DNA from: a virus
Reading direction: 5' to 3' (one strand)
Length of the DNA: 64,000 nucleotides
IMG/VR virus record: IMGVR_UViG_3300021599_002733
In this document: piece after piece, positions 47-24,578 of the stretch
How positions within the stretch are numbered: the first letter of the stretch is position 1
How the letters are laid out: every line of letters begins with the position of its first letter
Made by a program: the position numbers and the translations under genes
Notes under the pieces: generated by a model
What the model was told of the DNA's origin: nothing
Databases searched by the model: none
The model's input: the letters and a program-made list of their open reading frames with translations, nothing else

Positions 47-1771
47 TTACCCAAAAGAAACTCCAGTTGGTAATATATTGAAATCCAAGTAAATGAATTC
101 TGATGTTTTAGTTGGTTGTAAATAAATAGCACCTATCAATTGGTTATTGTCTATTGTTGTAGGTGTATTGTTTGTCTCATCCATAACTACTCTAAATGCA
201 TATAAACCGTTTCTTTGTTGAACTGATGATAAATATGGGTTAACTTGGAGTAAGAAGTTGTTACGCGTTGCAACTGTGTTTTGTTCAAATACAAGTGTAT
301 CTGCAATTTGTGTAATGTAGTTTTTAAGTTCAATTAATAAACGTCTAACGTTTACACGATCGAGTGCACTTGCTTTCTTTTGTAGTGTTTTTTGTCCAAA
401 TACTACAACTCCAACATTTGGAAATGTTGCAATTGGGTTTACATTTGCTTCATATAACGTGTCTCTGTTTCCTTGAGTTAAATATCTTTCAGCCATTATT
501 ACTGTAGGCATTAAACCACGTGTTGTTCCAGCAGGTGCAAACCATGCTTCAGCAGCATTATCGTTAAATGCATATACACCAGGAATCATTGTTGAAGCAG
601 GTACCCATACTTGTTGACCTGTTCCCGGATCAATTGTACGAACCCAAGGCCAATATGCAGCAGCATATGAAGAATCTATACCAGATGCTTCTAAAGCAAC
701 AGATGATACTTGAGATCCGTATGATTTAAGATCAAATACCAACATTGAATTTCCATTATTACTGCAAACAGAATCTAAAAGACTAATAGTTGAAGTATGA
801 GATGAAAAATCATATATTAACCCAGGTACTGTGATAAAATTAAATTTATATGCATCTTTGTTAGAGAGCAAATAAATAGAATCGGTGTATTCTGATGCTG
901 GGATACCTTGTGGTAATGAATCACTAATATTTTCATAGTAATTACCTGTACCGTTTGGTAGGTTAGAACCAAATGCAGCTCCAAATGTTCCGCTAGCGGC
1001 AGTTGGAATAGATGCTGTGTATTGTGGTTTTGGGTTACCTGAATTATCTAGGTAATTTGGTGTGGTAATGTTAACTTGTTTTACTCTAACATAGCTTGAA
1101 GCATTTCTGTAACTTCCAGATAATTGGATATAGAATTCCCCACTATCAGAGGCTACATTTTCAGCTTGGTTACCAATTACTTTCTCTATGTAGTTTGAAG
1201 ATAATGGATCTAAAGATAATGGGCCCCATGATTCTAGAATAGAAGGGGAGTTTGTTGAATCGTTTCCTCGTCTAATCAACAATGAAAATGTTCCGGTGTT
1301 GATATTTGGAGAAACAATTTGCCATCTAAAGTTATCTGCTGATCCTGAAGGTAAAGTACCATCTGCGTTTAGAGGGCTAGTGCTGTTCATGATTTGTCCT
1401 TCAGATAATGTCTCTAGAACAAATACACTGTTTAAAGAACCCGAATCAGGGATAAATGAAGAAGTAGCAGGACTCCAATGAGTACTACCACTTACTACTC
1501 TAGTTACAAGCAATGAAGCACCTCCATTCTGGAAGTAGTTGTATGCTGAAATTGATGTGAAGTATGAGTAGGTTTGGCTACCACTTAAGAATGTATCTCC
1601 ATATTTGTTTAAATATTCACTATATGTTGTTACAATAGTTGGGATTCCTACAGGTCCTTTAACTGTAGGTCCTATAATTGCTGCTCCAGCTTGTACAGGT
1701 TGTGTTGTAACAAACGATTGATCGTTTTCAATTGCTAAAACTCCTGGGGATATTAATATTTCTTGTGGCAT
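47..1771 (-). CDS. Contractile tail sheath protein (T4 gp18-like)
   Basis: N-terminal SPGVLAIEND..GPTVKGP; C-terminal YWPW, WFAPAG..RG, LYEANVNPI, FGQKT, RVNVRRLL, FEQN, PTKTSEFI sheath motifs. Confidence 0.96.
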   Translation of the reverse strand: MPQEILISPGVLAIENDQSFVTTQPVQAGAAIIGPTVKGPVGIPTIVTTYSEYLNKYGDTFLSGSQTYSYFTSISAYNYFQNGGASLLVTRVVSGSTHWSPATSSFIPDSGSLNSVFVLETLSEGQIMNSTSPLNADGTLPSGSADNFRWQIVSPNINTGTFSLLIRRGNDSTNSPSILESWGPLSLDPLSSNYIEKVIGNQAENVASDSGEFYIQLSGSYRNASSYVRVKQVNITTPNYLDNSGNPKPQYTASIPTAASGTFGAAFGSNLPNGTGNYYENISDSLPQGIPASEYTDSIYLLSNKDAYKFNFITVPGLIYDFSSHTSTISLLDSVCSNNGNSMLVFDLKSYGSQVSSVALEASGIDSSYAAAYWPWVRTIDPGTGQQVWVPASTMIPGVYAFNDNAAEAWFAPAGTTRGLMPTVIMAERYLTQGNRDTLYEANVNPIATFPNVGVVVFGQKTLQKKASALDRVNVRRLLIELKNYITQIADTLVFEQNTVATRNNFLLQVNPYLSSVQQRNGLYAFRVVMDETNNTPTTIDNNQLIGAIYLQPTKTSEFIYLDFNILPTGVSFG

Positions 1772-2065: not shown

Positions 2066-4165
2066 TTATAGGGTTAATTTACGCCAAGCACTTCCGCTTC
2101 CAAAATAAAAATCTCCACTTGAAGAGAATGCAATAGCACCATTTGTAACTGTTGGGAGAGGGGAAGTTGGTTCAATAGTTAATAAATCTCTAGTATAAAG
2201 TGATCCTGTTATACCCGCTGTTACATTTAATGAGCCAGTTATTGTAGTATTACCGTTAACATCTAGTTTTGTGTTTGGGGTTGCAGTTCCTATACCAACA
2301 TTACCTGACCCTGATATTCGCATACGTTCTACGCCGGCGGTTAAAAACGCCATACTGTCATCGGTATTATTATAATTTACCAATCCGTAATTACCTGTGG
2401 CTAATCCTTTTGAAAATAATACCCCAGCATTAGATGCAGTGGATGCGGCTAATTCTAAATAATTTTGTCCAGCTATATTCTCAGAATATACTACAGTCCC
2501 AACACCTCCACGTTTTGCAGTAGCTGAAGCAGATCCGGATTTGATATGTAATAATGCTAACGATGATGTAATACCAATACCGACGTTACCTGCGGCATCA
2601 ATTATAAATGGCGTTGCATCTGGATTTGTGGAATCTTCAACTAGGAATGATGCTGATGTTGAGGTATTATTTACATGGAATTTAGCATTAACTTCAGTAG
2701 GAAGACTTACTCCGACCCCAACATTTCCATTAGCTTGTATTGACATACGGATTAAATTTTCCGTTGCAAATAACATTCTGCCTCCTATGGGTTGGTTAAA
2801 TAATCTTAAATCTGTTGACCCAGAACTGCTGTATCCTAAATATCCAAATCGAGTTCCACCACTTTGAGGATAGAATTCTTGGAACATGTGATCTGTTCCT
2901 TCAAGTCTTAATATAGCAGGACCTCCGGAAACATGTAATTTAACGGAGGGTGTAGTTGTTCCTATACCAACGTTACCAGAAGCATCAATAACAAATGGTG
3001 TTGTATCTGGATTGGTTGAATCTTCTACTAAGAATGAGTTGCGTGTACCAACATTTGTTACATGAAGTGTTGCACTTCCGCTTTCAAGTGGACTAACTCT
3101 AGGATTTCCTATCAATACTTGACTGGCAGATGTAATATACATAGCCTGCGATATATTGTTAACAACAAAAGCAATACCAGCTGCCGTTCCTGCATTTAAT
3201 CCTAGATTTCCATTGGAATTTAAGTTAATAATATTTCCGGAGCCCGGAGATATGAATGTTGTAGAAAAAGTTTGCGAACCAGATGTTATGTTTAAACTTC
3301 CAGATGATATATTTAAACTACCTGTTATTCCGTATGATCCACTTAATTGATTGGTATGTTCCCATACTCCAAAAGAGCCACTTTGTTTATATACCCAAAG
3401 ATCTCCATAACTGTAAGATCCTGATTTGTATACAGAACTTAAATCTGAAAAATCAAGTGGTTGTTGTACAGCAACATATATAACACCACTTGTTCCAGGG
3501 GATGCTTTCACACATACACCTACAGGAATAATTTCATAGGGTGCTGAAGGGGCTGTATTTTGTAAGGCACCTGATGAGCCTGTTCCTACAAAAAGTGTAT
3601 CACCATCGTTAAATACATTTGTGTTTAATCCTCGAACTAGACCTTGTGTTGTTACATATCCAAAACTACTATCTTCAATAGTGTGAGTTGCAACACCTAA
3701 TATTTGGGTATCTACATTTATACTACCTGATTTGGCTATAGATTGTGCTCTTTCTATTGTAGGGGCATCACCTTGTGATCCTATAATTCTTACAACAGTA
3801 CCATTTGTTACGGTTGTTCCCGTATTGTTTCTAACACGGGTCCAGTTTTCCTGTCCTACTTGTAATGTTACATCTGCTTCAGCATTATATACCGATAATG
3901 CTCCATCTACATTATCCCAAAACACACGACCTGATTTCCAAGCAGGTACAGCTGAGCCTGTATTAAAATCAATATAATCCACATTATTTATGGATCCAGA
4001 CATTTGTAGGTTATTGGAATATGAAGCTGTTAGGGCATAGCTAGAGGAAATTGCGTTTAGAGCATATGATGCTGTTCCATGTAAAGATCCTGTTATGCTT
4101 GGAGCATATAATGAGTTTAATTCTGCATCACTACCTGAGGTGATGACTTTTTTCCAACTTGGCAT
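2066..4165 (-). CDS. Tail fibre segment with GNVGIGT repeats
   Basis: Four GNVG(I/V)G units, duplicated SFLVEDSTNPD.TPF.IDA.GNVGIG block, Ser/Gly/Thr-rich. Confidence 0.85.
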   Translation of the reverse strand: MPSWKKVITSGSDAELNSLYAPSITGSLHGTASYALNAISSSYALTASYSNNLQMSGSINNVDYIDFNTGSAVPAWKSGRVFWDNVDGALSVYNAEADVTLQVGQENWTRVRNNTGTTVTNGTVVRIIGSQGDAPTIERAQSIAKSGSINVDTQILGVATHTIEDSSFGYVTTQGLVRGLNTNVFNDGDTLFVGTGSSGALQNTAPSAPYEIIPVGVCVKASPGTSGVIYVAVQQPLDFSDLSSVYKSGSYSYGDLWVYKQSGSFGVWEHTNQLSGSYGITGSLNISSGSLNITSGSQTFSTTFISPGSGNIINLNSNGNLGLNAGTAAGIAFVVNNISQAMYITSASQVLIGNPRVSPLESGSATLHVTNVGTRNSFLVEDSTNPDTTPFVIDASGNVGIGTTTPSVKLHVSGGPAILRLEGTDHMFQEFYPQSGGTRFGYLGYSSSGSTDLRLFNQPIGGRMLFATENLIRMSIQANGNVGVGVSLPTEVNAKFHVNNTSTSASFLVEDSTNPDATPFIIDAAGNVGIGITSSLALLHIKSGSASATAKRGGVGTVVYSENIAGQNYLELAASTASNAGVLFSKGLATGNYGLVNYNNTDDSMAFLTAGVERMRISGSGNVGIGTATPNTKLDVNGNTTITGSLNVTAGITGSLYTRDLLTIEPTSPLPTVTNGAIAFSSSGDFYFGSGSAWRKLTL

Positions 4166-4180
4166 ATTATTTTAGTTTTT

Positions 4181-4244
4181 TTATTGTGGTTAGATACATA
4201 CACTCATGCCGTGTATATGCCTACTTCCTTACGGCCAACAATAG
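4181..4244 (-). ncRNA. Putative structured 5' leader (three-way junction) upstream of the fibre gene
   Basis: Minus strand: TATTG(T)TGG/CCACAATA closing stem, CC-GTAA-GG GNRA hairpin, 13-position stem TAGGCATATACAC/GTGTATGTATCTA; GC-rich relative to flanks. Confidence 0.5.
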
Positions 4245-4258
4245 TTTTGTTATAAATA

Positions 4259-5077
4259 TTATATATATCGGAACTCTTTAAAGAACCAATCGTATTTTGA
4301 TTTGATAAAATTGCATGTTTGACTTCCTAGTACTTCTTTGTATGTATTTTGTACTGGTTCTACTTTTTGTCTGATGTTGTGGTCACCATATATTCCATAC
4401 ACTTCATCATCCTCTACTGTAAGTTGTTCTACATTGTCAAAGTCGTGTTGGTATGTTGAAATATTTAAATATCCATAAATTTTATCCATAGTTTGTTGTG
4501 GGTTGGATGTTAAATCTTCAAATTTTACAAACAATACCTTTTCCCCTATTCCCTCATGCAACATTTGTTGGATGCGCTCAAATGCTAATCCAACAGGAGG
4601 TGTTGAAGACCATGTTTCTACACGTTTTTGTGTAGTTGTGTTTTGCATTTTTGAATGGTTAACAAAACCAGGATCTTTGTCAGGATTCTTTCTATAGTTT
4701 TTTTCCATAGAAGCATATATAGCTCTAGGATCCCGGACCATACATACAATTTTAGGTTCTGGGTAAAATGAGTTTAAGAATCCATAATGTATTCCCCATC
4801 CTCTTGACTTATCCATTACATATAGTTTGTTTGTGATTCCGTTGAAGAATCCAGACAATGCATATACGCAAAACGATTGGAATCCACGACGCATCAATTC
4901 ACTATCTTGTGCTTTGAATTCGGGTGATGAACTATAGTTTGCTCTAGCAGCATATAATAGCTCTAAAACACCTGAAGTTGGTGTAACATAAAAGTCTGGG
5001 TTTTGTCCTATAATGTTTTGTAATAGAGTGGATCCTGCTCTTGGGAGAGAGGATTGGAAAAATATCTGTTTTGGCAT
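4259..5077 (-). CDS. Sulfotransferase (Sulfotransfer_3 type, RaxST-like)
   Basis: 5'-PSB loop SLPRAGSTLL, 3'-PB motif VRDPRAIYAS, DKSRGW, FEDLTSNP, HDFDNV. Confidence 0.9.
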   Translation of the reverse strand: MPKQIFFQSSLPRAGSTLLQNIIGQNPDFYVTPTSGVLELLYAARANYSSSPEFKAQDSELMRRGFQSFCVYALSGFFNGITNKLYVMDKSRGWGIHYGFLNSFYPEPKIVCMVRDPRAIYASMEKNYRKNPDKDPGFVNHSKMQNTTTQKRVETWSSTPPVGLAFERIQQMLHEGIGEKVLFVKFEDLTSNPQQTMDKIYGYLNISTYQHDFDNVEQLTVEDDEVYGIYGDHNIRQKVEPVQNTYKEVLGSQTCNFIKSKYDWFFKEFRYI

Positions 5078-5079
5078 AA

Positions 5080-5241
5080 CTATTTTTTGGATGGTTTTGG
5101 AGGACTTTGAGAGAGTTCTTGTAGTTGTTGTTCTATTTTGATTTGCAGTTGAGCCAAAAATTGAGCATCTGCTCCCTTGATAGTAATGGAATCCAACCCT
5201 GCTCGTAAAAGTTGGAATTCGGGTAAAGAAAATTCAATCAT
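5080..5241 (-). CDS. 53-aa protein missing from the ORF track, paralog of the adjacent 60-aa ORF
   Basis: Hand translation MIEFSLPEFQLLRAGLDSITIKGADAQFLAQLQIKIEQQLQELSQSPPKPSKK; ATGA overlap with the upstream stop; fills the gap exactly. Confidence 0.8.
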   Translation of the reverse strand: MIEFSLPEFQLLRAGLDSITIKGADAQFLAQLQIKIEQQLQELSQSPPKPSKK

Positions 5242-5420
5242 TTGTTTAAATATTGTTGTTGTAGTTTATATGCTATATTGTAGAGTATCTCTACATGTTC
5301 CCCTTTAAAGGTGGATTCTTTTAGCAGCAACAATATAAATTCAATTTCGTGCTTCTCCAAGGAAAAATCCCCTTCCTTTTGAGAAGGGGATTCTTGGTTG
5401 ATTTTGTCTAATATACTCAT
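5238..5420 (-). CDS. 60-aa hypothetical protein
   Basis: Tightly packed in the operon; shares FSL..E...T(F/I)KG...L....K.(Q/E)QQ pattern with 5080..5241. Confidence 0.75.
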   Translation of the reverse strand: MSILDKINQESPSQKEGDFSLEKHEIEFILLLLKESTFKGEHVEILYNIAYKLQQQYLNK

Positions 5421-5438
5421 AACTTTTTAAATATTCTA

Positions 5439-8258
5439 TTAAGCGTAGATATAAATATCACTTCCAGATACTCTGATGTTTCCGTTTTTCTGGTATTTTG
5501 CTATATCTGATTGACCACCGTCTACATCTACTACAGCTGCAATGTATGCTTCTGGTGCGTAGCTAGTGGAAGTAGCATTGAACGATCCTGTGAATCCCCA
5601 ACGTTGTACTCCACTGTCATATCCATATAGCTCACCTATATTTTGGGTTCCTTGTTGAACTACAATACCACCATCTCCTGTTGCATTTGAGCCAGAAGCA
5701 AACAATACGAATCTATCTGCCACTAACAGATTTTCTGCGTTTTGGAAAGATGCTGTACCTTGTACTGTAATATCTCCTTGGAATAAAGCGTCTGTTGAAA
5801 AAGTAACTAACGTTCCATCATCCGTAATGCTAGTGTTTGCAAATGCATCTCCTGTCCACTTTGTAAGTGTGTTTGAGCTTAAAGCAGAAGCACCCGATAC
5901 TTCAACTGTTACGTTTGAGGTACCATTGTATGTGAATGTTGAGATACCTGTTCCGTTTGACGCTGAACTTGCTAGGTATGAAGCAGATATTCCTGTTAAT
6001 CCACTACCATCTCCTACAAACGAACCTGTAAATATAGAACCAGTTACTGGTTGGTTAAATGTGATGCTTTGTGAGTTGAATAAAGCTAAATCGCTTCTGT
6101 TTGCATCATCTACACCGTTACCAATTACTACTAGCGAATCTAGATTGTTGTGGGTGTTGTATTTACCCGCTGCTAATTGACCAGAACCAGATGCGATAGT
6201 GTGTAAACCTTCAGCGTGTGATACAGGACCATATGCAACTGTACTTTCACCTTCAGCGTGAGAATAATCACCTAATGCTATTGATGTATCACCTTCTGCG
6301 TGTGAAAATGAACCAGATGCTATTGTACCAGAACCTTCAGCATGTGAATAATTACCGGATGCTGTTGTTCCTTGTCCTTCAGCATGTGAATAATTACCGG
6401 ATGCTGTTGTTCCTTGTCCTTCAGCGTGTGAACTATAACCAGATGCTGTTGTACTAAGACCTTCTGCATGGGAATAATTGCCGGATGCTGTTGTTCCTTG
6501 TCCTTCAGCGTGTGAGTATGAACCAGATGCTGTTGTACTACTACCTTCTGCATGGGAATAATTGCCTGATGCTGTTGTGGTATTACCTTCAGCGTGTGAA
6601 TAATTACCGGATGCTGTTGTGGTATTACCTTCAGCGTGTGAATAATCACCGGATGCTGTTGTAGTACTACCTTCTGCGTGTGAACCAATTGCAGATGCTA
6701 CCGTTTGGTAACCTTCAGCATGAGAGTATGAACCAGATGCTATAGTTAAATAACCTTCTGCGTGTGAATATAAACCAGATGCCGTTGCGTCTCTACCTTC
6801 TGCGTGTGACCATGAACCAGATGCTATAGTTCCGTTACCTTCTGCGTGGGATGCATATCCGGATGCTGTTGTACCGTTACCTTCTGCGTGTGATGTATAC
6901 CCAGATGCTGTTGTACCACCACCTTCAGCATGAGAATAATTTCCAGATGCAGTTGTAGTATCACCTTCTGCGTGTGAATAATTTCCAGATGCTACTGTAT
7001 TAACGCCTTCTGCATGACTCCACGCTCCACTTGCAGTTACATTTAAACCATTTTCAAATCCACCATTTGCTCTAACATTCATTAAAGCGATAGATTCGGA
7101 AACTAGTGTAAATGAGTTTGAACCTACATCAACTGAACCTGTAACAGATCCTGTTGCAATTTGGTTAGATTCAAATGATTGTGTTGGTAAATTAGTTAAC
7201 CCACTACCATCACCTTGGAATGAACCGGAGAATGAACCGGAGAATAAACCATTTTCCCAATCTACTATTATATCTCCATTAGAATTATTTAATTGTCTAT
7301 TATCAACCCAAACAGCTCTACTACCGTTTAAATCAAATAATTCAAAACTAGATCCTGATTGGGCAAATACTATTTGAGAATTGTTATTATCTATACTAAC
7401 TTGCCACTGCTCAGTGATAAGATTAATATTGGAACCAGTTACATCCAATGATCCCGTTACTGAGATTCCATTATCAGCTCTTAACTCCATTGAATTATTT
7501 GTACTGTAATTGTCAACTTTTACATAAGTTGTATCATCACCTAAAAATAACCAACCGCCGCTTGCTGTAATGTGTGTATCTTGAGCAGCTGTATTATAGA
7601 TTTCTAAGTATCTAGCATCATTTGAATCAGGTTGTAGTTTTAAACTACCCGTACCTTTAATATTACCAGTTACAGTTAAAGATCCGCTCAAAACAGCATC
7701 ACCAGAAGAGGAGATGTTGAATAGATCAATTGAGCCACTTGAAACTGTAAATATATCGCCACTTAAATCATCTACTATGCTAAATAGAGCACCACTAGAG
7801 CCACTTACTTCAAATACTGTTGAACCTGAGTTGTACAAAGTAGTTAATCCAATTACCTCTAAGCTACCTGATATAATAGCAGACCCTGTGTATGGGAATG
7901 GAGATACGGAAGGTGCATATGAAGCAGATGTTGCTGTGTCCGCATATGAACTAGATAATGCATATGAACTTGATTCAGCATATGAAGCACTAGTTGATGT
8001 TTCAGCATATGAAGAGCTTGTAGCTGTTTCAGAGTATGAAGCACTTGTAGCTGTTTCAGCGTATGAAGCACTCGTTGCAGTGTTAGCATATGATGCTGAT
8101 GTTGCATATGATGCGGTACCTGTAAAATCTCCTATAAAGGAACCACTAAAGGAGCCTGTTAAATAAGCTCCATCTTGCCCTTGAATTAAATAATTTACGT
8201 CATTGTTGAGTTGCGATATATCACTACCCGAGACAACAACTTTTTTCCATTCTGCCAT
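5439..8258 (-). CDS. Tail fibre/adhesin segment with YadA-head-like 14-aa repeats
   Basis: 20 SHAEG..T.ASG repeats, ASYA repeats near the N-terminus, fibre-like C-terminus. Confidence 0.85.
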   Translation of the reverse strand: MAEWKKVVVSGSDISQLNNDVNYLIQGQDGAYLTGSFSGSFIGDFTGTASYATSASYANTATSASYAETATSASYSETATSSSYAETSTSASYAESSSYALSSSYADTATSASYAPSVSPFPYTGSAIISGSLEVIGLTTLYNSGSTVFEVSGSSGALFSIVDDLSGDIFTVSSGSIDLFNISSSGDAVLSGSLTVTGNIKGTGSLKLQPDSNDARYLEIYNTAAQDTHITASGGWLFLGDDTTYVKVDNYSTNNSMELRADNGISVTGSLDVTGSNINLITEQWQVSIDNNNSQIVFAQSGSSFELFDLNGSRAVWVDNRQLNNSNGDIIVDWENGLFSGSFSGSFQGDGSGLTNLPTQSFESNQIATGSVTGSVDVGSNSFTLVSESIALMNVRANGGFENGLNVTASGAWSHAEGVNTVASGNYSHAEGDTTTASGNYSHAEGGGTTASGYTSHAEGNGTTASGYASHAEGNGTIASGSWSHAEGRDATASGLYSHAEGYLTIASGSYSHAEGYQTVASAIGSHAEGSTTTASGDYSHAEGNTTTASGNYSHAEGNTTTASGNYSHAEGSSTTASGSYSHAEGQGTTASGNYSHAEGLSTTASGYSSHAEGQGTTASGNYSHAEGQGTTASGNYSHAEGSGTIASGSFSHAEGDTSIALGDYSHAEGESTVAYGPVSHAEGLHTIASGSGQLAAGKYNTHNNLDSLVVIGNGVDDANRSDLALFNSQSITFNQPVTGSIFTGSFVGDGSGLTGISASYLASSASNGTGISTFTYNGTSNVTVEVSGASALSSNTLTKWTGDAFANTSITDDGTLVTFSTDALFQGDITVQGTASFQNAENLLVADRFVLFASGSNATGDGGIVVQQGTQNIGELYGYDSGVQRWGFTGSFNATSTSYAPEAYIAAVVDVDGGQSDIAKYQKNGNIRVSGSDIYIYA
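6185..7040 (-). repeat. 42-nt coding tandem repeat (about 20 units, SHAEGxxTxASGxY)
   Basis: Directly visible; some neighbouring units are nucleotide-identical (about 6335-6425). Confidence 0.95.
7910..8120 (-). repeat. Short coding repeat (T/S)SASYA, 18- and 27-nt units
   Basis: TASYATSASYANTATSASYAETATSASYSETATSSSYAETSTSASYA... Confidence 0.9.
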
Positions 8259-8303
8259 TTTTTCTTTTTTTCTAGTTTATTAATATTCTATATGTTATAT
8301 ATA

Positions 8304-8708
8304 TTAATCAAGTCCTATATATAGCGCACCTGATGTGAAGTATATTGCACCATTTGGTGCCGGGTTTGTTAATGTTAGTGATTGTGTGGATAGTGTTACC
8401 ATACCACTTTGAGATACCGCTAAAACAGATGTTCCAACAGCATTTTTGATTAGAAACAAATCAGAAGCACTACCCGAAATTGTGGTTTGTCCTTGTGAAT
8501 CTACTTTTAAAAATGGAATGCTACCGGACGAGATCAAGAATACATTTGTTCCAATATTAAGTTGAGTTGATCCAGTTACAGTTAAAGATCCAGATATGGT
8601 AATGTCATATGCCTCTATACCAGTAAATGCATCCACAGATTGGGATACATGCCACGGTCTAACTACACCTAGGGATACAATGGATGATTTGTCGAGTATT
8701 TTTGCCAT
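8304..8708 (-). CDS. Short fibre-proximal/adaptor protein
   Basis: ISGSLTVTGS and FLISSGSI motifs shared with the neighbouring fibres; C-terminal NGAIYFTSGALYIG. Confidence 0.7.
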   Translation of the reverse strand: MAKILDKSSIVSLGVVRPWHVSQSVDAFTGIEAYDITISGSLTVTGSTQLNIGTNVFLISSGSIPFLKVDSQGQTTISGSASDLFLIKNAVGTSVLAVSQSGMVTLSTQSLTLTNPAPNGAIYFTSGALYIGLD

Positions 8709-11579: not shown

Positions 11580-12233
11580 TTAAAACTGGTAGTCAAATAA
11601 ATCCATATAAAATTTAAAGTGTTTTTCAACTAAGTTTTTTGTCTCCTCTGTATACATTTTTTTCCAATCTTTATCGGGTCTTCTTTTATTCTTTTTATAT
11701 TCAGATAATTCTCTTGTTGGTTCGGGTAGATTTAACTTAATCAATAGTTTGTTTATATCACTATCCAAGTTTTCAAATCTTACAATCTCATCAACGATAA
11801 ATTGATTATCAATATACATTAGATCCCAATATTTTTTAGACAAATCCTCAACCACATTAGTTGTTAATAGATAATCCTCAAAAGACATTTCAACTCTACT
11901 ATATAAATCAAATGTTGGTTTGAAATAGTAATGACTAACCATCATATCAAATGGGTTTCTAACATTTATAATTTTTGTATATGAATTGAATTTTTCCTCA
12001 CCAATACTATTTTTTATTTTGTATGGTGGCATATGGTTATAGAACTCTGACATTTCAGCTAACATCTGATTCATTCTAGTTCCGATTATACCTTCTTCGG
12101 TTTGGGTCATTTCTCTACCGTGACTTTCCTCTATGTGAGATACACAATATGGTTCTAAAAATATTTCAGTACTTGTTCCTGCTGTCTTTATACTTTTGAT
12201 AAAAATGAATTTGTGTTTATGAGATACTAACAT
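11580..12233 (-). CDS. Sulfotransferase family 2 (carbohydrate sulfotransferase-like)
   Basis: MLVSHKHKFIFIKSIKTAGTS, VRNPFDMMVSHY, VRFENLDSD, D..LFDYQF. Confidence 0.88.
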   Translation of the reverse strand: MLVSHKHKFIFIKSIKTAGTSTEIFLEPYCVSHIEESHGREMTQTEEGIIGTRMNQMLAEMSEFYNHMPPYKIKNSIGEEKFNSYTKIINVRNPFDMMVSHYYFKPTFDLYSRVEMSFEDYLLTTNVVEDLSKKYWDLMYIDNQFIVDEIVRFENLDSDINKLLIKLNLPEPTRELSEYKKNKRRPDKDWKKMYTEETKNLVEKHFKFYMDLFDYQF

Positions 12234-12238
12234 TGTTT

Positions 12239-12805
12239 TTAATTTTCGGTTTTATTATGGTGTCCAAATTGAGTGGATTTTATTTCAATATATTCAGAGA
12301 AAAACTCTATTAATTTATGTGATTCACTTTCAATATCAAACACTAGTAAATCTTTTGGTCTGTCTTTAAAGTATTCTTGAACTGAAGTTATATGGTCGTT
12401 CCATTGTTTTTTCCAATGTTCAATAACACCATTTTCATCCAACCCTGTTATTCTTTGAAAAACTTTAAGATAGTTTTGATGTTTGATTCTTGATTGTATC
12501 CATTTATCTACTGGTCTTAGGTTTAAGATAAATTTTGAGTTTGGGTATTGTTTATCCAATTCTTTAAAGTGGGTTAGATATATGAATGTGTTACTTTGTA
12601 CTTCTTCCATATCTGTAAAACAATCATAATCCTCGTATCCTCTTAAAAGTGGTTGATTTGTTTCGTGGTTTCTTTTAATGGTTGTTGCTAACATACTCAT
12701 ACCCCAATGAATTGACTGTAAGCCATTTTCTTCAAAGAAGTGATGTATGGATAAGGTTCCACATTTGTTAAACCCTATTTGAAATATTTTATTTATTTTC
12801 TCCAT
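12239..12805 (-). CDS. Sulfotransferase-domain protein
   Basis: KIFQIGFNKCGTLS, YPNSKFILNLRPVDKWIQS, YFKDRPKDLLVFDI. Confidence 0.82.
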   Translation of the reverse strand: MEKINKIFQIGFNKCGTLSIHHFFEENGLQSIHWGMSMLATTIKRNHETNQPLLRGYEDYDCFTDMEEVQSNTFIYLTHFKELDKQYPNSKFILNLRPVDKWIQSRIKHQNYLKVFQRITGLDENGVIEHWKKQWNDHITSVQEYFKDRPKDLLVFDIESESHKLIEFFSEYIEIKSTQFGHHNKTEN

Positions 12806-22904: not shown

Positions 22905-24578
22905 TTAGATAGATGCTAGATCATTTACAAATACACGTCCATAAAACTCAGGTCTTATCATTTTCTTAGCGTAACGAGTTAAGAGACCTTTACGTGGAGT
23001 AAATGTGTCTGGATCGTACACAAGTGGAGTCATGATTAACGGAATGTATGGAGCAAATACAGCACCTGTTTCAAGGAACTGAGATCCTCTATAACCCATC
23101 AAGATAACGTTCTCAGTCATATAAGGATTCTTATAAACTGTGAAACGGTTATTCAATTGACCTGATTTTTGGATACCGAATGCGTAAGACATTTTAGTAG
23201 CTTCACCATCTGAAGTTGAAGCGAATCCTGGGATTGACTCAAGAACAGTAGCAACTGTAGGAGAAACAACCATGAAGTTAGCACCTCCACGTAGAGTTTT
23301 CTGGTGGATTTTGTTGCTTACTTTTTGGAATTTCGTACCCAAAGTTTGGAACCACTGACCTTGTGTATTGTAGAATCCAAGGTTATCATATCCTGTGTTA
23401 GCAGAATTCAATGAACGGTTATTTACAGCTGACCACCACTCATCTGCAGCAGAAGCGTCTTGGATCAACATATCAAGTACTTCAAGGTCAATTTCCAATG
23501 AAATGTACTCAGACATGATAGATGTCAATTCAGCTTCAGCATCAAGTGCTTGGTAAGCGTTCAAATCTTGTGCGAATTCAGGTGTCCATTGTGCTTTCAA
23601 CTTACGAGTTTTAGCAACGATAGCTTCTGATTTCAATTTAACGTCAATTTGTGGGATAGCTAAAGCATCAGCAGATGTAGATTGTGCGTTTGGATAACCA
23701 CCAGCATTTCCTGATTGGTCTTCGAAATCACCTCTGTAGTTATCTTTTGGTTGTACGTTGTAGTAAACAACAAGTTTTCCTGTGATAGGTCCAACAGATG
23801 GAGTGTTGTATACAAAACGAATAGCACCACCAACAACTTTAGTGTATTGTGGAAGTAATGTATTTGCAGAGTATGAACCTGAAAGAGCAGCAAATGCACG
23901 AACACCTTCAAGATCTGGGCTGTTCAATGAACCTGTTGGTACATCGATGTATGAAATAAGACTACCAGCAGCAACTGAAGCAGATAATTCAGCATCGTAG
24001 TTAACCATAGCCCAAGTTGCATCACCTCTTTGGATTGACCATTCAGATCCAGTAACTGAAGCTGAGAATTGGTTGATTGAGTATCCGAAACGACCTGCTC
24101 CGTAAAGACCACCTTCAGGGTCAACACCAGCACCAGGGTTAGTGTTACCGTACATTGAAGAAGGAGATGTAAATACTTCACCTACTCCACCAAACTTCAA
24201 TTGTTTTGCTTGGTCATATTGGAAATCTAGGAAGAATACAAGTCCAGAAGGCAAGTTCATAGGTTGTACAGAAACGAATTCTTTTGAAGAAATCGCACCG
24301 AATACCTTACGTACCAATGGAAGAGCAACTCCAGCCCACTGTGCACCTGCACCAACTGTAAATGTACCACCTACTCCAGCAGTGTTAGTTGAAGTTTCAA
24401 CAACAAGTTGTTTTGCTTGGTTTTCAAGGATCATAGCCATGTTGTTTTTCTCAACCTCGTTTCCAAGGCCTTCCAACAAACCTGTCTTACCCCATTTTGC
24501 AGCCATTCTTGCTGCATCACTCTGCATGTTTTTCCAACCGCTTGCAGAGCTTTCTAGTAATGAATTAATGTTTGACAT
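22905..24578 (-). CDS. Major capsid protein (T4 gp23-like)
   Basis: ILENQ, VSVQPMNLPSGLVF, AKTRKLKAQWTPEFAQDL, AELTSIMSEYISLEID, FAPYIPL, FTPRKGLLTRY. Confidence 0.98.
   Translation of the reverse strand: MSNINSLLESSASGWKNMQSDAARMAAKWGKTGLLEGLGNEVEKNNMAMILENQAKQLVVETSTNTAGVGGTFTVGAGAQWAGVALPLVRKVFGAISSKEFVSVQPMNLPSGLVFFLDFQYDQAKQLKFGGVGEVFTSPSSMYGNTNPGAGVDPEGGLYGAGRFGYSINQFSASVTGSEWSIQRGDATWAMVNYDAELSASVAAGSLISYIDVPTGSLNSPDLEGVRAFAALSGSYSANTLLPQYTKVVGGAIRFVYNTPSVGPITGKLVVYYNVQPKDNYRGDFEDQSGNAGGYPNAQSTSADALAIPQIDVKLKSEAIVAKTRKLKAQWTPEFAQDLNAYQALDAEAELTSIMSEYISLEIDLEVLDMLIQDASAADEWWSAVNNRSLNSANTGYDNLGFYNTQGQWFQTLGTKFQKVSNKIHQKTLRGGANFMVVSPTVATVLESIPGFASTSDGEATKMSYAFGIQKSGQLNNRFTVYKNPYMTENVILMGYRGSQFLETGAVFAPYIPLIMTPLVYDPDTFTPRKGLLTRYAKKMIRPEFYGRVFVNDLASI

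What the first reader, a model, noticed from the sequence alone, without database searches (positions are those of the whole stretch)
2066..8708. Fibre segments apparently chained by a beta-domain split between consecutive genes
Seen: the distal 699-aa fibre ends with a complete motif, NGAIAFSSSGDFYFGSGSA-WRKL. The 134-aa protein ends with only the first part (NGAIYFTSGALYIGLD*) and the next gene starts with the missing part (MAE-WKKV-VVSGS). That 939-aa protein again ends with the first part (NGNIRVSGSDIYIYA*) and the next fibre starts MPS-WKKV-ITSGS. Inference: the W(K/R)K(V/L) strand of each segment completes the C-terminal domain of the previous one. This would be donor-strand-like complementation building an ordered 134->939->699 fibre whose last subunit is self-capped, a plug-and-socket joint allowing segment exchange.
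Basis: partly seen in the sequence, partly recalled or inferred. Interest (0 to 1): 0.8.

Follow-up and report, generated by a model that had tools for sequence, protein, structure and literature searches.

The report
Phage tail fibre joined by split hairpins
An uncultured aquatic phage related to Flavobacterium phage immuto encodes its tail fibre as three proteins, and each joint probably forms when the first residues of one protein supply the beta-strand missing from the end of the previous one; this is conserved in hundreds of relatives and predicted, not yet shown by experiment.

Summary
P0001 (134 aa) and P0002 (939 aa) end right after the second strand of a small three-strand motif. P0002 and P0003 (699 aa) begin M-x-x-WKKV-x-x-SGS. 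P0003 ends with the whole motif. One correction: two small conserved ORFs and a sulfotransferase lie between the 939-aa and 699-aa genes.

The pattern is not chance:
- 148 of the 150 best cluster representatives of the first "socket" domain stop at the same point, and none is fused.
- All 120 best relatives of the second socket end the same way, and 115 also start with the plug.
- Four distant loci tested blind show the same gene order.
- Synonymous codons vary under invariant residues, so selection acts on the protein.

A 3+3 multimer model of joint 1 passes its controls (0.82 against 0.10). It pairs AEWKKV antiparallel to ALYIGL, in the register expected from the intact motif.

I read this as a cut hairpin rebuilt between two trimers, a non-covalent plug and socket that allows module swapping. 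Joint 2 and the specificity of each pair were not tested.

I found no description in print. This scan has noted similar split fibre joints on other DNA. It is a new variant of a known principle.

The parts
8304..8708 (-). P0001, 134-aa adaptor. It has an N-terminal anchor (about residues 1-50), a short beta-rich shaft and socket 1.
   Evidence: The N-terminal anchor is shared at 60-85% identity with many single-chain fibres. The C-terminal 95 aa define a family of 279 cluster representatives.
8307..8372 (-). Socket 1: P0001 residues 113-134, which hold strands 1 and 2 of the motif (NGAIYF / ALYIGL) and end 3 residues after strand 2.
   Evidence: Modelled interface residues are 113, 115-121, 123 and 126-134. 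148 of 150 relatives end at this point.
8223..8258 (-). Plug 1: P0002 residues 1-12, MAEWKKVVVSGS.
   Evidence: Modelled interface residues are 1-7 and 9. M1, W4, S10, G11 and S12 are invariant in 30 sequences. Synonymous codons vary under the invariant residues.
5439..8258 (-). P0002, 939-aa middle segment with a plug at the N-end, YadA-head-like repeats in the middle and socket 2 at the C-end.
   Evidence: Pfam YadA_head E = 2e-18. 115 of 120 relatives of its C-terminal domain also start with the plug.
5442..5498 (-). Socket 2: the last 19 residues of P0002, KYQKNGNIRVSGSDIYIYA.
   Evidence: All 120 best relatives end ..G-N-[IM]-x-[VI]..[DE]-I-[YWF]-I-Y-[SAGT]*.
5238..5420 (-). Small ORF A (P0126, 60 aa). 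It always lies between the socket-2 gene and the MP-plug gene. Its role is unknown; it may be a joint or fibre chaperone, or a knee component.
   Evidence: It is present in phage immuto (gp054), L064, L107, L123, L125 and L126.
5080..5241 (-). Small ORF B (P0127, 53 aa), a weak paralogue of ORF A.
   Evidence: (pairwise E = 0.002). It has the same distribution as ORF A.
4259..5077 (-). Sulfotransferase (P0004, 272 aa), inserted in the fibre cluster. It is not part of the joint.
   Evidence: Pfam Sulfotransfer_3 E = 5e-18. It is present in only some relatives (L001, L012, L038).
4130..4165 (-). Plug 2: P0003 residues 1-12, MPSWKKVITSGS.
   Evidence: M, P, W, S, G and S are conserved in 14 of 14 third fibres. 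Joint 2 itself was not modelled.
2066..4165 (-). P0003, 699-aa distal fibre.
   Evidence: PHROG tail-fibre families match it. Its repeats match Bdellovibrio MAT fibres, 8ond, E = 3.5e-8.
2069..2143 (-). Intact three-strand cap: NGAIAFSSSGDFYFGSGSAWRKLTL.
   Evidence: The AF2 monomer model has strands IAF, FYFGS and AWRK with a 2-residue turn, pLDDT 82-85. The same cap closes other fibres: L042, L048-L052 and P0033.

Best explanation
The fibre is built from three separately encoded trimers in the order P0001 (baseplate adaptor), P0002 and P0003. Each joint is a small three-strand beta unit whose last hairpin has been cut in its turn. Strands 1 and 2 sit at the C-end of the proximal protein (the socket). 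Strand 3, W-K-K-V, is the very N-terminus of the distal protein (the plug). On assembly each plug strand pairs antiparallel with strand 2 of one socket chain, and its Trp packs on strand 1. Three rebuilt hairpins then form the trimer-trimer joint. There are two joint types. Socket 1 (..F-[FY]-V-G-L-D*) takes plugs that begin M-A-x-W. Socket 2 (..I-[YWF]-I-Y-[AS]*) takes plugs that begin M-P-x-W, and its gene is always followed by two small ORFs. Because the joints are conserved while everything between them is free to vary, shaft and tip modules can be exchanged. Shown here: the sequence pattern, its conservation and the gene order. Predicted: the geometry of joint 1. Inferred: joint 2, the specificity of each pair, the trimeric state and the order of assembly.
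For: The termini are as described. Socket 1 is always terminal and cut at the same residue in 148 of 150 50%-identity cluster representatives; the 2 exceptions look truncated or frameshifted. Socket 2 is the same in 120 of 120 relatives, and 115 of those also carry the plug. The order socket1 > plug+socket2 > plug holds in all 14 complete loci that carry all three genes; L107/L108 rewire the same parts, and the other loci are cut by contig ends. The same order holds in cultured Flavobacterium phage immuto and in 4 of 4 distant loci tested blind. Invariant residues are written with several synonymous codons, including Ser AGT and TCA. The multimer model scores ipSAE 0.82, 0.80 and 0.83 against a best control of 0.10, with partner pLDDT 89 and at least 95% contact agreement between runs. 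That mark was reached by 58 of 80 solved complexes and 2 of 110 mismatched pairs, and the counts hold only roughly for my own alignments and a 3+3 job. The best-supported contacts L133-E3, G132-W4, I131-K5, Y130-K6 and L129-V7 are the register expected from the intact cap. In the cap, AF2 places strands FYFGS and AWRK around a two-residue turn. No similar solved complex was found by sequence, so the pass is unlikely to come from memory. L107 carries socket 1 with an MA-plug fibre and, separately, a different anchor with socket 2, the two small ORFs and an MP-plug fibre. So each plug type stays next to its own socket type. YadA-head repeats and MAT-fibre repeats support trimeric fibres.
Against: There is no experiment. 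Only joint 1 was modelled. The two plugs are nearly identical (AEWKKVVVSGS and PSWKKVITSGS), so what makes each pair specific is unexplained, and one relative (L004) has an MP-type plug after socket 1. Homology between socket 1 and the intact cap rests on 15 aligned columns (hhalign probability 13%, E = 0.0022). No fused socket-plug form exists among close relatives; the only internal fused-looking unit (L097) is not significant by BLAST. In the control runs the socket trimer is still modelled with pLDDT 77-81 beside an unrelated partner, so it may be fairly stable alone.
Confidence: 0.7

Rival explanations
1. The conserved ends are independent features. WKKV..SGS is a generic N-terminal trimer-nucleating or baseplate-docking motif. 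P0002 and P0003 each attach to the baseplate or to another adaptor on their own (parallel or branched fibres), and the C-terminal hairpins are complete caps in the trimer.
For: The two plugs are almost identical, and the socket trimer is modelled fairly confidently without the true partner. L107 shows that plug proteins can be terminal and that sockets sit on different anchors.
Against: A plug gene always follows a socket gene, also after rewiring in L107 and in 4 of 4 blind tests. Sockets stop at one exact residue in 268 of 270 relatives. The model places the plug in the register of the missing strand.
Confidence: 0.15
2. The conserved termini are mainly recombination linkers: DNA homology boxes at module borders that promote shuffling. 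Physical joining is then done by other contacts or by the two small ORFs acting as a knee, like T4 gp35.
For: The sharp identity break after residue 32 of P0003 against L001 shows a swap at the border. The small ORFs are always present at joint 2.
Against: Synonymous codons vary freely under invariant residues, so selection acts on the protein and not on the DNA. Joint 1 has no small ORFs and still models as a tight interface.
Confidence: 0.08
3. The gene pairs are translated as one protein, by stop-codon read-through, frameshifting, ribosome hopping or splicing.
For: P0001 and P0002 happen to be in the same frame, 45 nt apart.
Against: Four in-frame stop codons lie between them. In relatives the gaps are 30-54 nt and not multiples of three. 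Every downstream gene has its own ATG after an A-rich leader. Joint 2 is interrupted by whole genes. No intron or other RNA family was detected.
Confidence: 0.02

Closest known systems
Donor-strand complementation and exchange in chaperone-usher pili (Fim, Pap). From established knowledge.
   Same: A subunit lacks a beta-strand, and the N-terminal extension of the next subunit supplies it. This gives an ordered, non-covalent chain.
   Different: Here the unit is a tiny three-strand meander cut in a hairpin turn, not an Ig fold with a groove. The subunits are trimers. There is no usher or periplasmic chaperone. There are only two joints, each of its own type.
T4 long tail fibre, (gp34)3-gp35-(gp36)3-(gp37)3. 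See bioRxiv 10.64898/2026.03.06.709160, read.
   Same: A myovirus fibre made of serially joined, separately encoded trimers. An extra small component sits at one joint (gp35 kneecap in T4, two small ORFs here).
   Different: No sequence relation was found. The paper as read describes the gp35 kneecap but no split motif at the gp36-gp37 joint. The small ORFs here are 53-80 aa, against 372 aa for gp35.
T4 fibritin foldon. C-terminal sequence read from NC_000866..AYVRKDGEWVFLSTFL..
   Same: A C-terminal beta-hairpin of a trimeric fibre with the same Tyr-to-Trp spacing (Y+7) and a two-residue turn, compared by eye: AYVRKDGEWVFL against FYFGSGSAWRKL.
   Different: Only 3 of 12 residues are identical. 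Neither sequence nor fold searches returned fibritin. The foldon is never split between proteins. This is a resemblance, not an established relationship.
CBA120 TSP4 N-terminal anchor (7REJ, 7RFV) and Bordetella phage Mtd N-terminal beta-prism (1YU0).
   Same: Small trimeric beta modules at the ends of receptor-binding proteins, some of which hold other fibres. They are the best structural rows for the cap model.
   Different: The scores are weak (Z = 4.0, rmsd 3.4 over 64 residues; Z = 2.4, rmsd 2.4 over 38). That is within the range of common arrangements.
Split fibre joints noted earlier by this scan on other DNA (knuckle module, Ig, BACON): e1-5556954, e1-5556935, e1-5350557.
   Same: One small fold is cut at a gene boundary between consecutive fibre genes. 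In the knuckle case the downstream gene also starts M-A-R-W.., just before a Trp strand.
   Different: The hosts and lineages differ, and so do the modules (collagen-interrupting knuckle, Ig). Those are AI notes that I did not re-test.

Membership tests
Donor-strand complementation systems (chaperone-usher type) | The subunit fold lacks one strand, which the next subunit's N-terminus supplies | tested here: met
   Met by prediction and comparison only. The sockets end after strand 2, and the modelled plug strand pairs in the missing register.
Donor-strand complementation systems (chaperone-usher type) | Ig-like pilin fold with a hydrophobic groove; periplasmic chaperone and usher | tested here: not met
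   No Pfam pilin, chaperone or usher family matched in the cluster. The unit is a three-strand meander. It works in a similar way but is not a member.
T4 fibritin foldon | Detectable sequence or fold similarity to the 27-residue C-terminal foldon | tested here: inconclusive
   No PDB sequence hit at E <= 10. Fibritin is not among the rows shown by Foldseek or VIA. Only the by-eye pattern match to the sequence remains.
T4-type long tail fibre proteins gp34-gp37 | Homology to gp34, gp35, gp36 or gp37 | tested here: not met
   Pfam and PHROGs gave only generic tail-fibre PHROGs and YadA_head. tblastn against phages found no T4 fibre genes.
Socket-1 domain family (unnamed; profile A1) | A C-terminal domain of about 95 aa ending ..NGAIYFTSxSxFVG[LI][DE]*, followed by a gene that starts M-A-x-W-K-K-V | tested here: met
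   P0001 is the seed. There are 279 relatives at E <= 1e-3. The downstream plug was confirmed in every locus that extends far enough.
Trimeric autotransporter-like YadA head repeats (PF05658) | Pfam match above the gathering score | tested here: met
   P0002 scores 66.6 bits against a cut-off of 25. This concerns the shaft only and supports a trimeric state.
Mtd N-terminal beta-prism / CBA120 TSP4 anchor | Fold similarity of the cap to these domains | tested here: inconclusive
   VIA Z = 2.4 and Z = 4.0. Foldseek E > 1.

The most novel reading that the evidence does not exclude
The two joint types are a natural pair of orthogonal, portable trimer-to-trimer connectors. Socket 1 pairs with MA-plugs. 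Socket 2 pairs with MP-plugs, with the two small ORFs acting as joint-specific assembly factors or knee parts. Each connector is a foldon-like hairpin split between two proteins. Completing the hairpin would then both dock the distal fibre and set its trimer register. If so, about 20 residues at each end would be enough to programme the order of fibre segments in a large clade of aquatic myoviruses.
Probability: 0.3. Interest if true: 0.75.

Novelty: new variant of a known kind. Interest (0 to 1): 0.6.

Why it matters
How separately made fibre segments recognise each other and join in order is poorly known even for T4. Here the joint reduces to roughly 20 C-terminal plus 7-12 N-terminal residues that can be read directly from sequence. 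It is conserved across hundreds of aquatic phage lineages and is present in a cultured phage (Flavobacterium phage immuto), so it can be tested. It would explain how these phages swap host-recognition modules without disturbing assembly. It would also let annotators decide from gene ends alone which fibre genes form one fibre.

Tried and rejected
- Pfam at E <= 10 on the cap, both sockets and two internal motif regions gave no family for the motif.
- PDB sequence searches with P0001, P0003, the cap and the L097 unit found only MAT-fibre repeats for the P0003 shaft.
- Foldseek against the PDB with the cap model found nothing at E < 1. The top weak rows were the collagen XV/XVIII trimerisation domains.
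- VIA wide search gave a best Z of 4.0.
- hhalign of socket 1 against the intact cap aligned only 15 columns, probability 13%.
- Search for fused forms: there are none in 46+73 viral loci apart from C-terminal caps. There are none among 120 longer relatives of P0001, none among the 150 best profile hits and none among 120 relatives of socket 2. L097 has an internal unit, GLITY..GLYYY..GWHKVLTNSGS, but pairwise BLAST to P0001 and P0003 is not significant there.
- Read-through, frameshift and intron readings were rejected.
- The sigma-70 promoter and terminator scan was uninformative.
- The window's own whole genome is not held.
- Literature searches for strand complementation, donor strand, augmentation or foldon together with tail fibres, and for phage immuto, found no description of such a joint.
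- Megablast of the region against phage records gave no match.
Full report
**What the window is.** The window has about 33% G+C. It carries a tail sheath gene (47..1771, minus strand; Pfam Phage_sheath, PHROG tail sheath) and a T4-type major capsid protein gene (22905..24578, minus). The closest cultured relative of that capsid protein is Flavobacterium phage vB_FspM_immuto, at 59% identity over 99% of the length. There is no near-identical phage record. It is therefore an uncultured aquatic myovirus of the immuto-like group. No whole genome is held for it.

**Checking the observation.** All fibre genes lie on the minus strand.
- P0001 ends ..NGAIYFTSGALYIGLD*.
- P0002 starts MAEWKKVVVSGSD and ends ..NGNIRVSGSDIYIYA*.
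- P0003 starts MPSWKKVITSGSD and ends ..NGAIAFSSSGDFYFGSGSAWRKLTL*.

A six-frame scan of the whole window finds these motifs at ORF ends only in these three genes.

One correction is needed. The 939-aa and 699-aa genes are not consecutive. Between them lie a 60-aa ORF, a 53-aa ORF and a sulfotransferase.

**Is it more than chance?** Three comparisons say yes.
- Among 46 viral contigs that encode relatives of P0001, 21 non-redundant loci have a protein ending ..APNGAIYFTSxSxFVG[LI][DE]*. It is followed after 30-54 nt by a gene that starts M-A/P-x-W-K-K-V-x-V-S-G-S and ends ..G-x-I-x-V....G-D-I-[YFW]-I-Y-[AS]*. Where the contig continues, the next fibre gene starts M-P-x-W-K-[KR]-V.
- A profile of the last 95 residues of P0001 was searched against 1.84 billion cluster representatives. 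It found 279 relatives at E <= 1e-3. In 148 of the best 150, the protein ends 3-5 residues after strand 2. The two exceptions look truncated or frameshifted. The N-terminal parts range from nothing to about 775 residues.
- All 120 best relatives of the C-terminal domain of P0002 end at ..I-Y-[SAGT]*, and 115 of them start with the plug.

A tally of architectures over all loci gives socket1 > plug+socket2 > plug in all 14 complete loci that carry all three genes. L107 and L108 rewire the same parts (see "Modularity" below), and the remaining loci are cut by contig ends.

As a blind test I took four distant socket-1 proteins (437-869 aa, with unrelated N-terminal parts) and fetched their contigs. 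In 4 of 4, the next gene starts MA[TQ]WKKV..SGS. In the 3 contigs that continue, that gene ends with socket 2 and is followed by two small ORFs and a gene that starts MP[NS]WK[KR].

Cultured phage immuto has the same module, gp056 > gp055 (annotated "virion structural protein") > gp054 > gp053 > gp052.

Invariant residues are encoded by several synonymous codons: Gly by GGA, GGT and GGC, and Ser by TCN and AGT. The constraint therefore acts on the protein, not on the DNA.

**What the intact motif looks like.** The C-terminal cap of P0003 also closes other fibres (L042, L048-L052, P0033). Several of these carry the same N-terminal anchor as P0001. An AF2 monomer model of P0003 residues 630-699 places three strands, IAF, FYFGS and AWRK. 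A two-residue turn (G-S) separates the last two strands, and pLDDT there is 82-85. Other single-chain fibres with the P0001-type anchor end in variants of the same hairpin-plus-Trp pattern, for example ..YYFDGSSWVSLI and ..FYLYVFLGGNWRKTTLT.

Aligned by motif, P0001 stops two residues into the last turn, and P0002 begins just before the Trp. If Met1 is removed, which is my inference from the usual rule for Met-Ala and Met-Pro, then LYI-GLD|AE-W has the same length as FYF-GSGSA-W.

**Modelling joint 1.** I modelled three copies of P0001 residues 40-134 (alignment A1) with three copies of P0002 residues 1-60 (alignment A2).
- The scores were 0.82, 0.80 and 0.83, against a best control of 0.10.
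- Partner pLDDT was 89, and the runs shared at least 95% of their contacts.
- In the tool's calibration this mark was reached by 58 of 80 solved complexes and by 2 of 110 mismatched pairs. Those counts hold only roughly here, because I used my own alignments and a 3+3 job.
- The interface is P0001 residues 113, 115-121, 123 and 126-134 with P0002 residues 1-7 and 9.
- The best-determined contacts are L133-E3, G132-W4, I131-K5, Y130-K6 and L129-V7. W4 also touches A117, A121 and Y123.

This is an antiparallel strand pairing in the register implied by the intact hairpin: S61-A64, G60-W65, F59-R66, Y58-K67 and F57-L68 in the numbering of the cap model. I inferred that cis register from the DSSP strands and the two-residue turn, because no contact list is available for the monomer.

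No related solved complex was found by sequence, so a pass from memory is unlikely. The model supports binding; it does not show it.

**Modularity.**
- P0002-type proteins range from 189 to 1197 aa, third fibres from 144 to 2200 aa, and socket-1 proteins from 56 to 869 aa. Their ends stay the same.
- P0003 and the third fibre of the close relative L001 share residues 1-32 exactly and then have nothing in common.
- P0002 and its L001 counterpart differ mainly in the number of YadA-like repeats.
- In L107 the same parts are wired differently. Socket 1 is followed by a terminal MA-plug fibre. A separate 930-aa protein with another anchor carries socket 2, followed by the two small ORFs and an MP-plug fibre. 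Each plug type therefore stays next to its own socket type. This is the best comparative hint that the pairs are specific.
- The exception is L004, where an MP-type plug follows socket 1.

**Rivals.**
- Translation of the gene pairs as one protein is excluded. Four in-frame stops lie between P0001 and P0002. The gaps in relatives are not multiples of three. Whole genes interrupt joint 2. No intron or other RNA family was detected.
- A pure recombination-linker role does not fit the synonymous variation.
- Independent attachment of P0002 and P0003 to the particle cannot be excluded without experiment. It does not explain the exact truncation point, the fixed socket-then-plug adjacency or the modelled register.

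**Comparison with what is known.**
- The principle, a missing strand supplied by the next subunit's N-terminus, is that of donor-strand complementation in chaperone-usher pili. The fold, the trimeric state and the absence of a chaperone or usher differ, so this is not a member of that family.
- T4's long fibre is also a chain of separately encoded trimers with an extra kneecap protein. I found no homology to it.
- The last hairpin resembles the T4 fibritin foldon in position, Tyr-Trp spacing and turn length (sequence). No search tool confirmed this, so it remains a lead.
- Structural searches with the cap model gave only weak rows: CBA120 TSP4 anchor Z = 4.0, Mtd N-domain Z = 2.4, and collagen XV/XVIII trimerisation domains at Foldseek E of about 1.
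- Profile comparison links socket 1 to the cap over only 15 columns.
- I found no paper describing such a joint.
- Earlier notes of this scan report analogous split joints in other viruses. One is a collagen "knuckle" that is also cut just before a Trp strand. I did not re-test those notes.

**Verdict.** Four things remain open: joint 2, what makes each pair specific, the role of the two small ORFs, and any experimental proof. I rate it a new variant of a known principle, with interest 0.6.

Noticed in passing
window 5238..5420 and 5080..5241 (minus strand): Two small ORFs of 60 and 53 aa are weakly paralogous (BLASTP E = 0.002; shared pattern E-[IL]..L...L...T..G........K..Q). In every relative they sit between the socket-2 gene and the MP-plug gene: phage immuto gp054/gp053, L064, L107, L123, L125 and L126. 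No Pfam or PHROG family matches them. They could be a joint-specific chaperone pair or a knee component.
   Followed up: partly
window 8559..8708 (P0001 residues 1-50): The N-terminal anchor, MAKILDKSSIVSLGVVRPWHVSQ.., is shared at 60-85% identity with more than 80 longer single-chain fibres. Their tips differ widely (Peptidase_G2 PF11962, YadA_head, others). It is a second, baseplate-side exchange point.
   Followed up: partly
L107 1357..9233: A relative rewires the same parts into two two-part fibres. One is socket 1 (127 aa) plus a terminal MA-plug fibre (680 aa). The other is a 930-aa protein with its own anchor and socket 2, then two small ORFs, then an MP-plug fibre (689 aa).
   Followed up: partly
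window 4259..5077 (minus strand): A sulfotransferase (Sulfotransfer_3, E = 5e-18) is inserted inside the fibre cluster between joint-2 partners. The same gene occurs near fibre genes in L001, L012 and L038 but not in most relatives. Two more sulfotransferase-like ORFs lie at 11580..12805.
   Followed up: no
window 5451..5498 against 8217..8258 (P0002 residues 919-935 against 1-14): The C-end of P0002, IAKYQKNGNIRVSGSDI, aligns with its own N-end, MAEWKK---VVVSGSDI. The plug strand may therefore be followed at once by the first strand and turn of a further unit of the same kind. That would suggest a repeating strand-turn pattern running through the joint.
   Followed up: no
L097 9157..9420: A 933-aa fibre of an unrelated contig has an internal, uninterrupted unit, ..QGFLPPRTHLTSNIDTPAQGLITYVTGSGNGGDGLYYYNSGSSIGWHKVLTNSGS.. 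It looks like socket plus plug in one chain. Pairwise BLAST to P0001 and P0003 is not significant there.
   Followed up: partly
window 2066..4165 against L001 5287..6222: P0003 and the third fibre of the closest relative are 100% identical over residues 1-32 and unrelated afterwards. This marks a recent module swap directly behind the plug. L047 carries a P0003 whose last 90 residues are 100% identical.
   Followed up: yes
window 5439..8258: P0002 contains about 20 tandem YadA-head-like repeats (SHAEG..T.ASG). The L001 homologue has many more (1197 aa against 939 aa), so fibre length varies by repeat number.
   Followed up: partly
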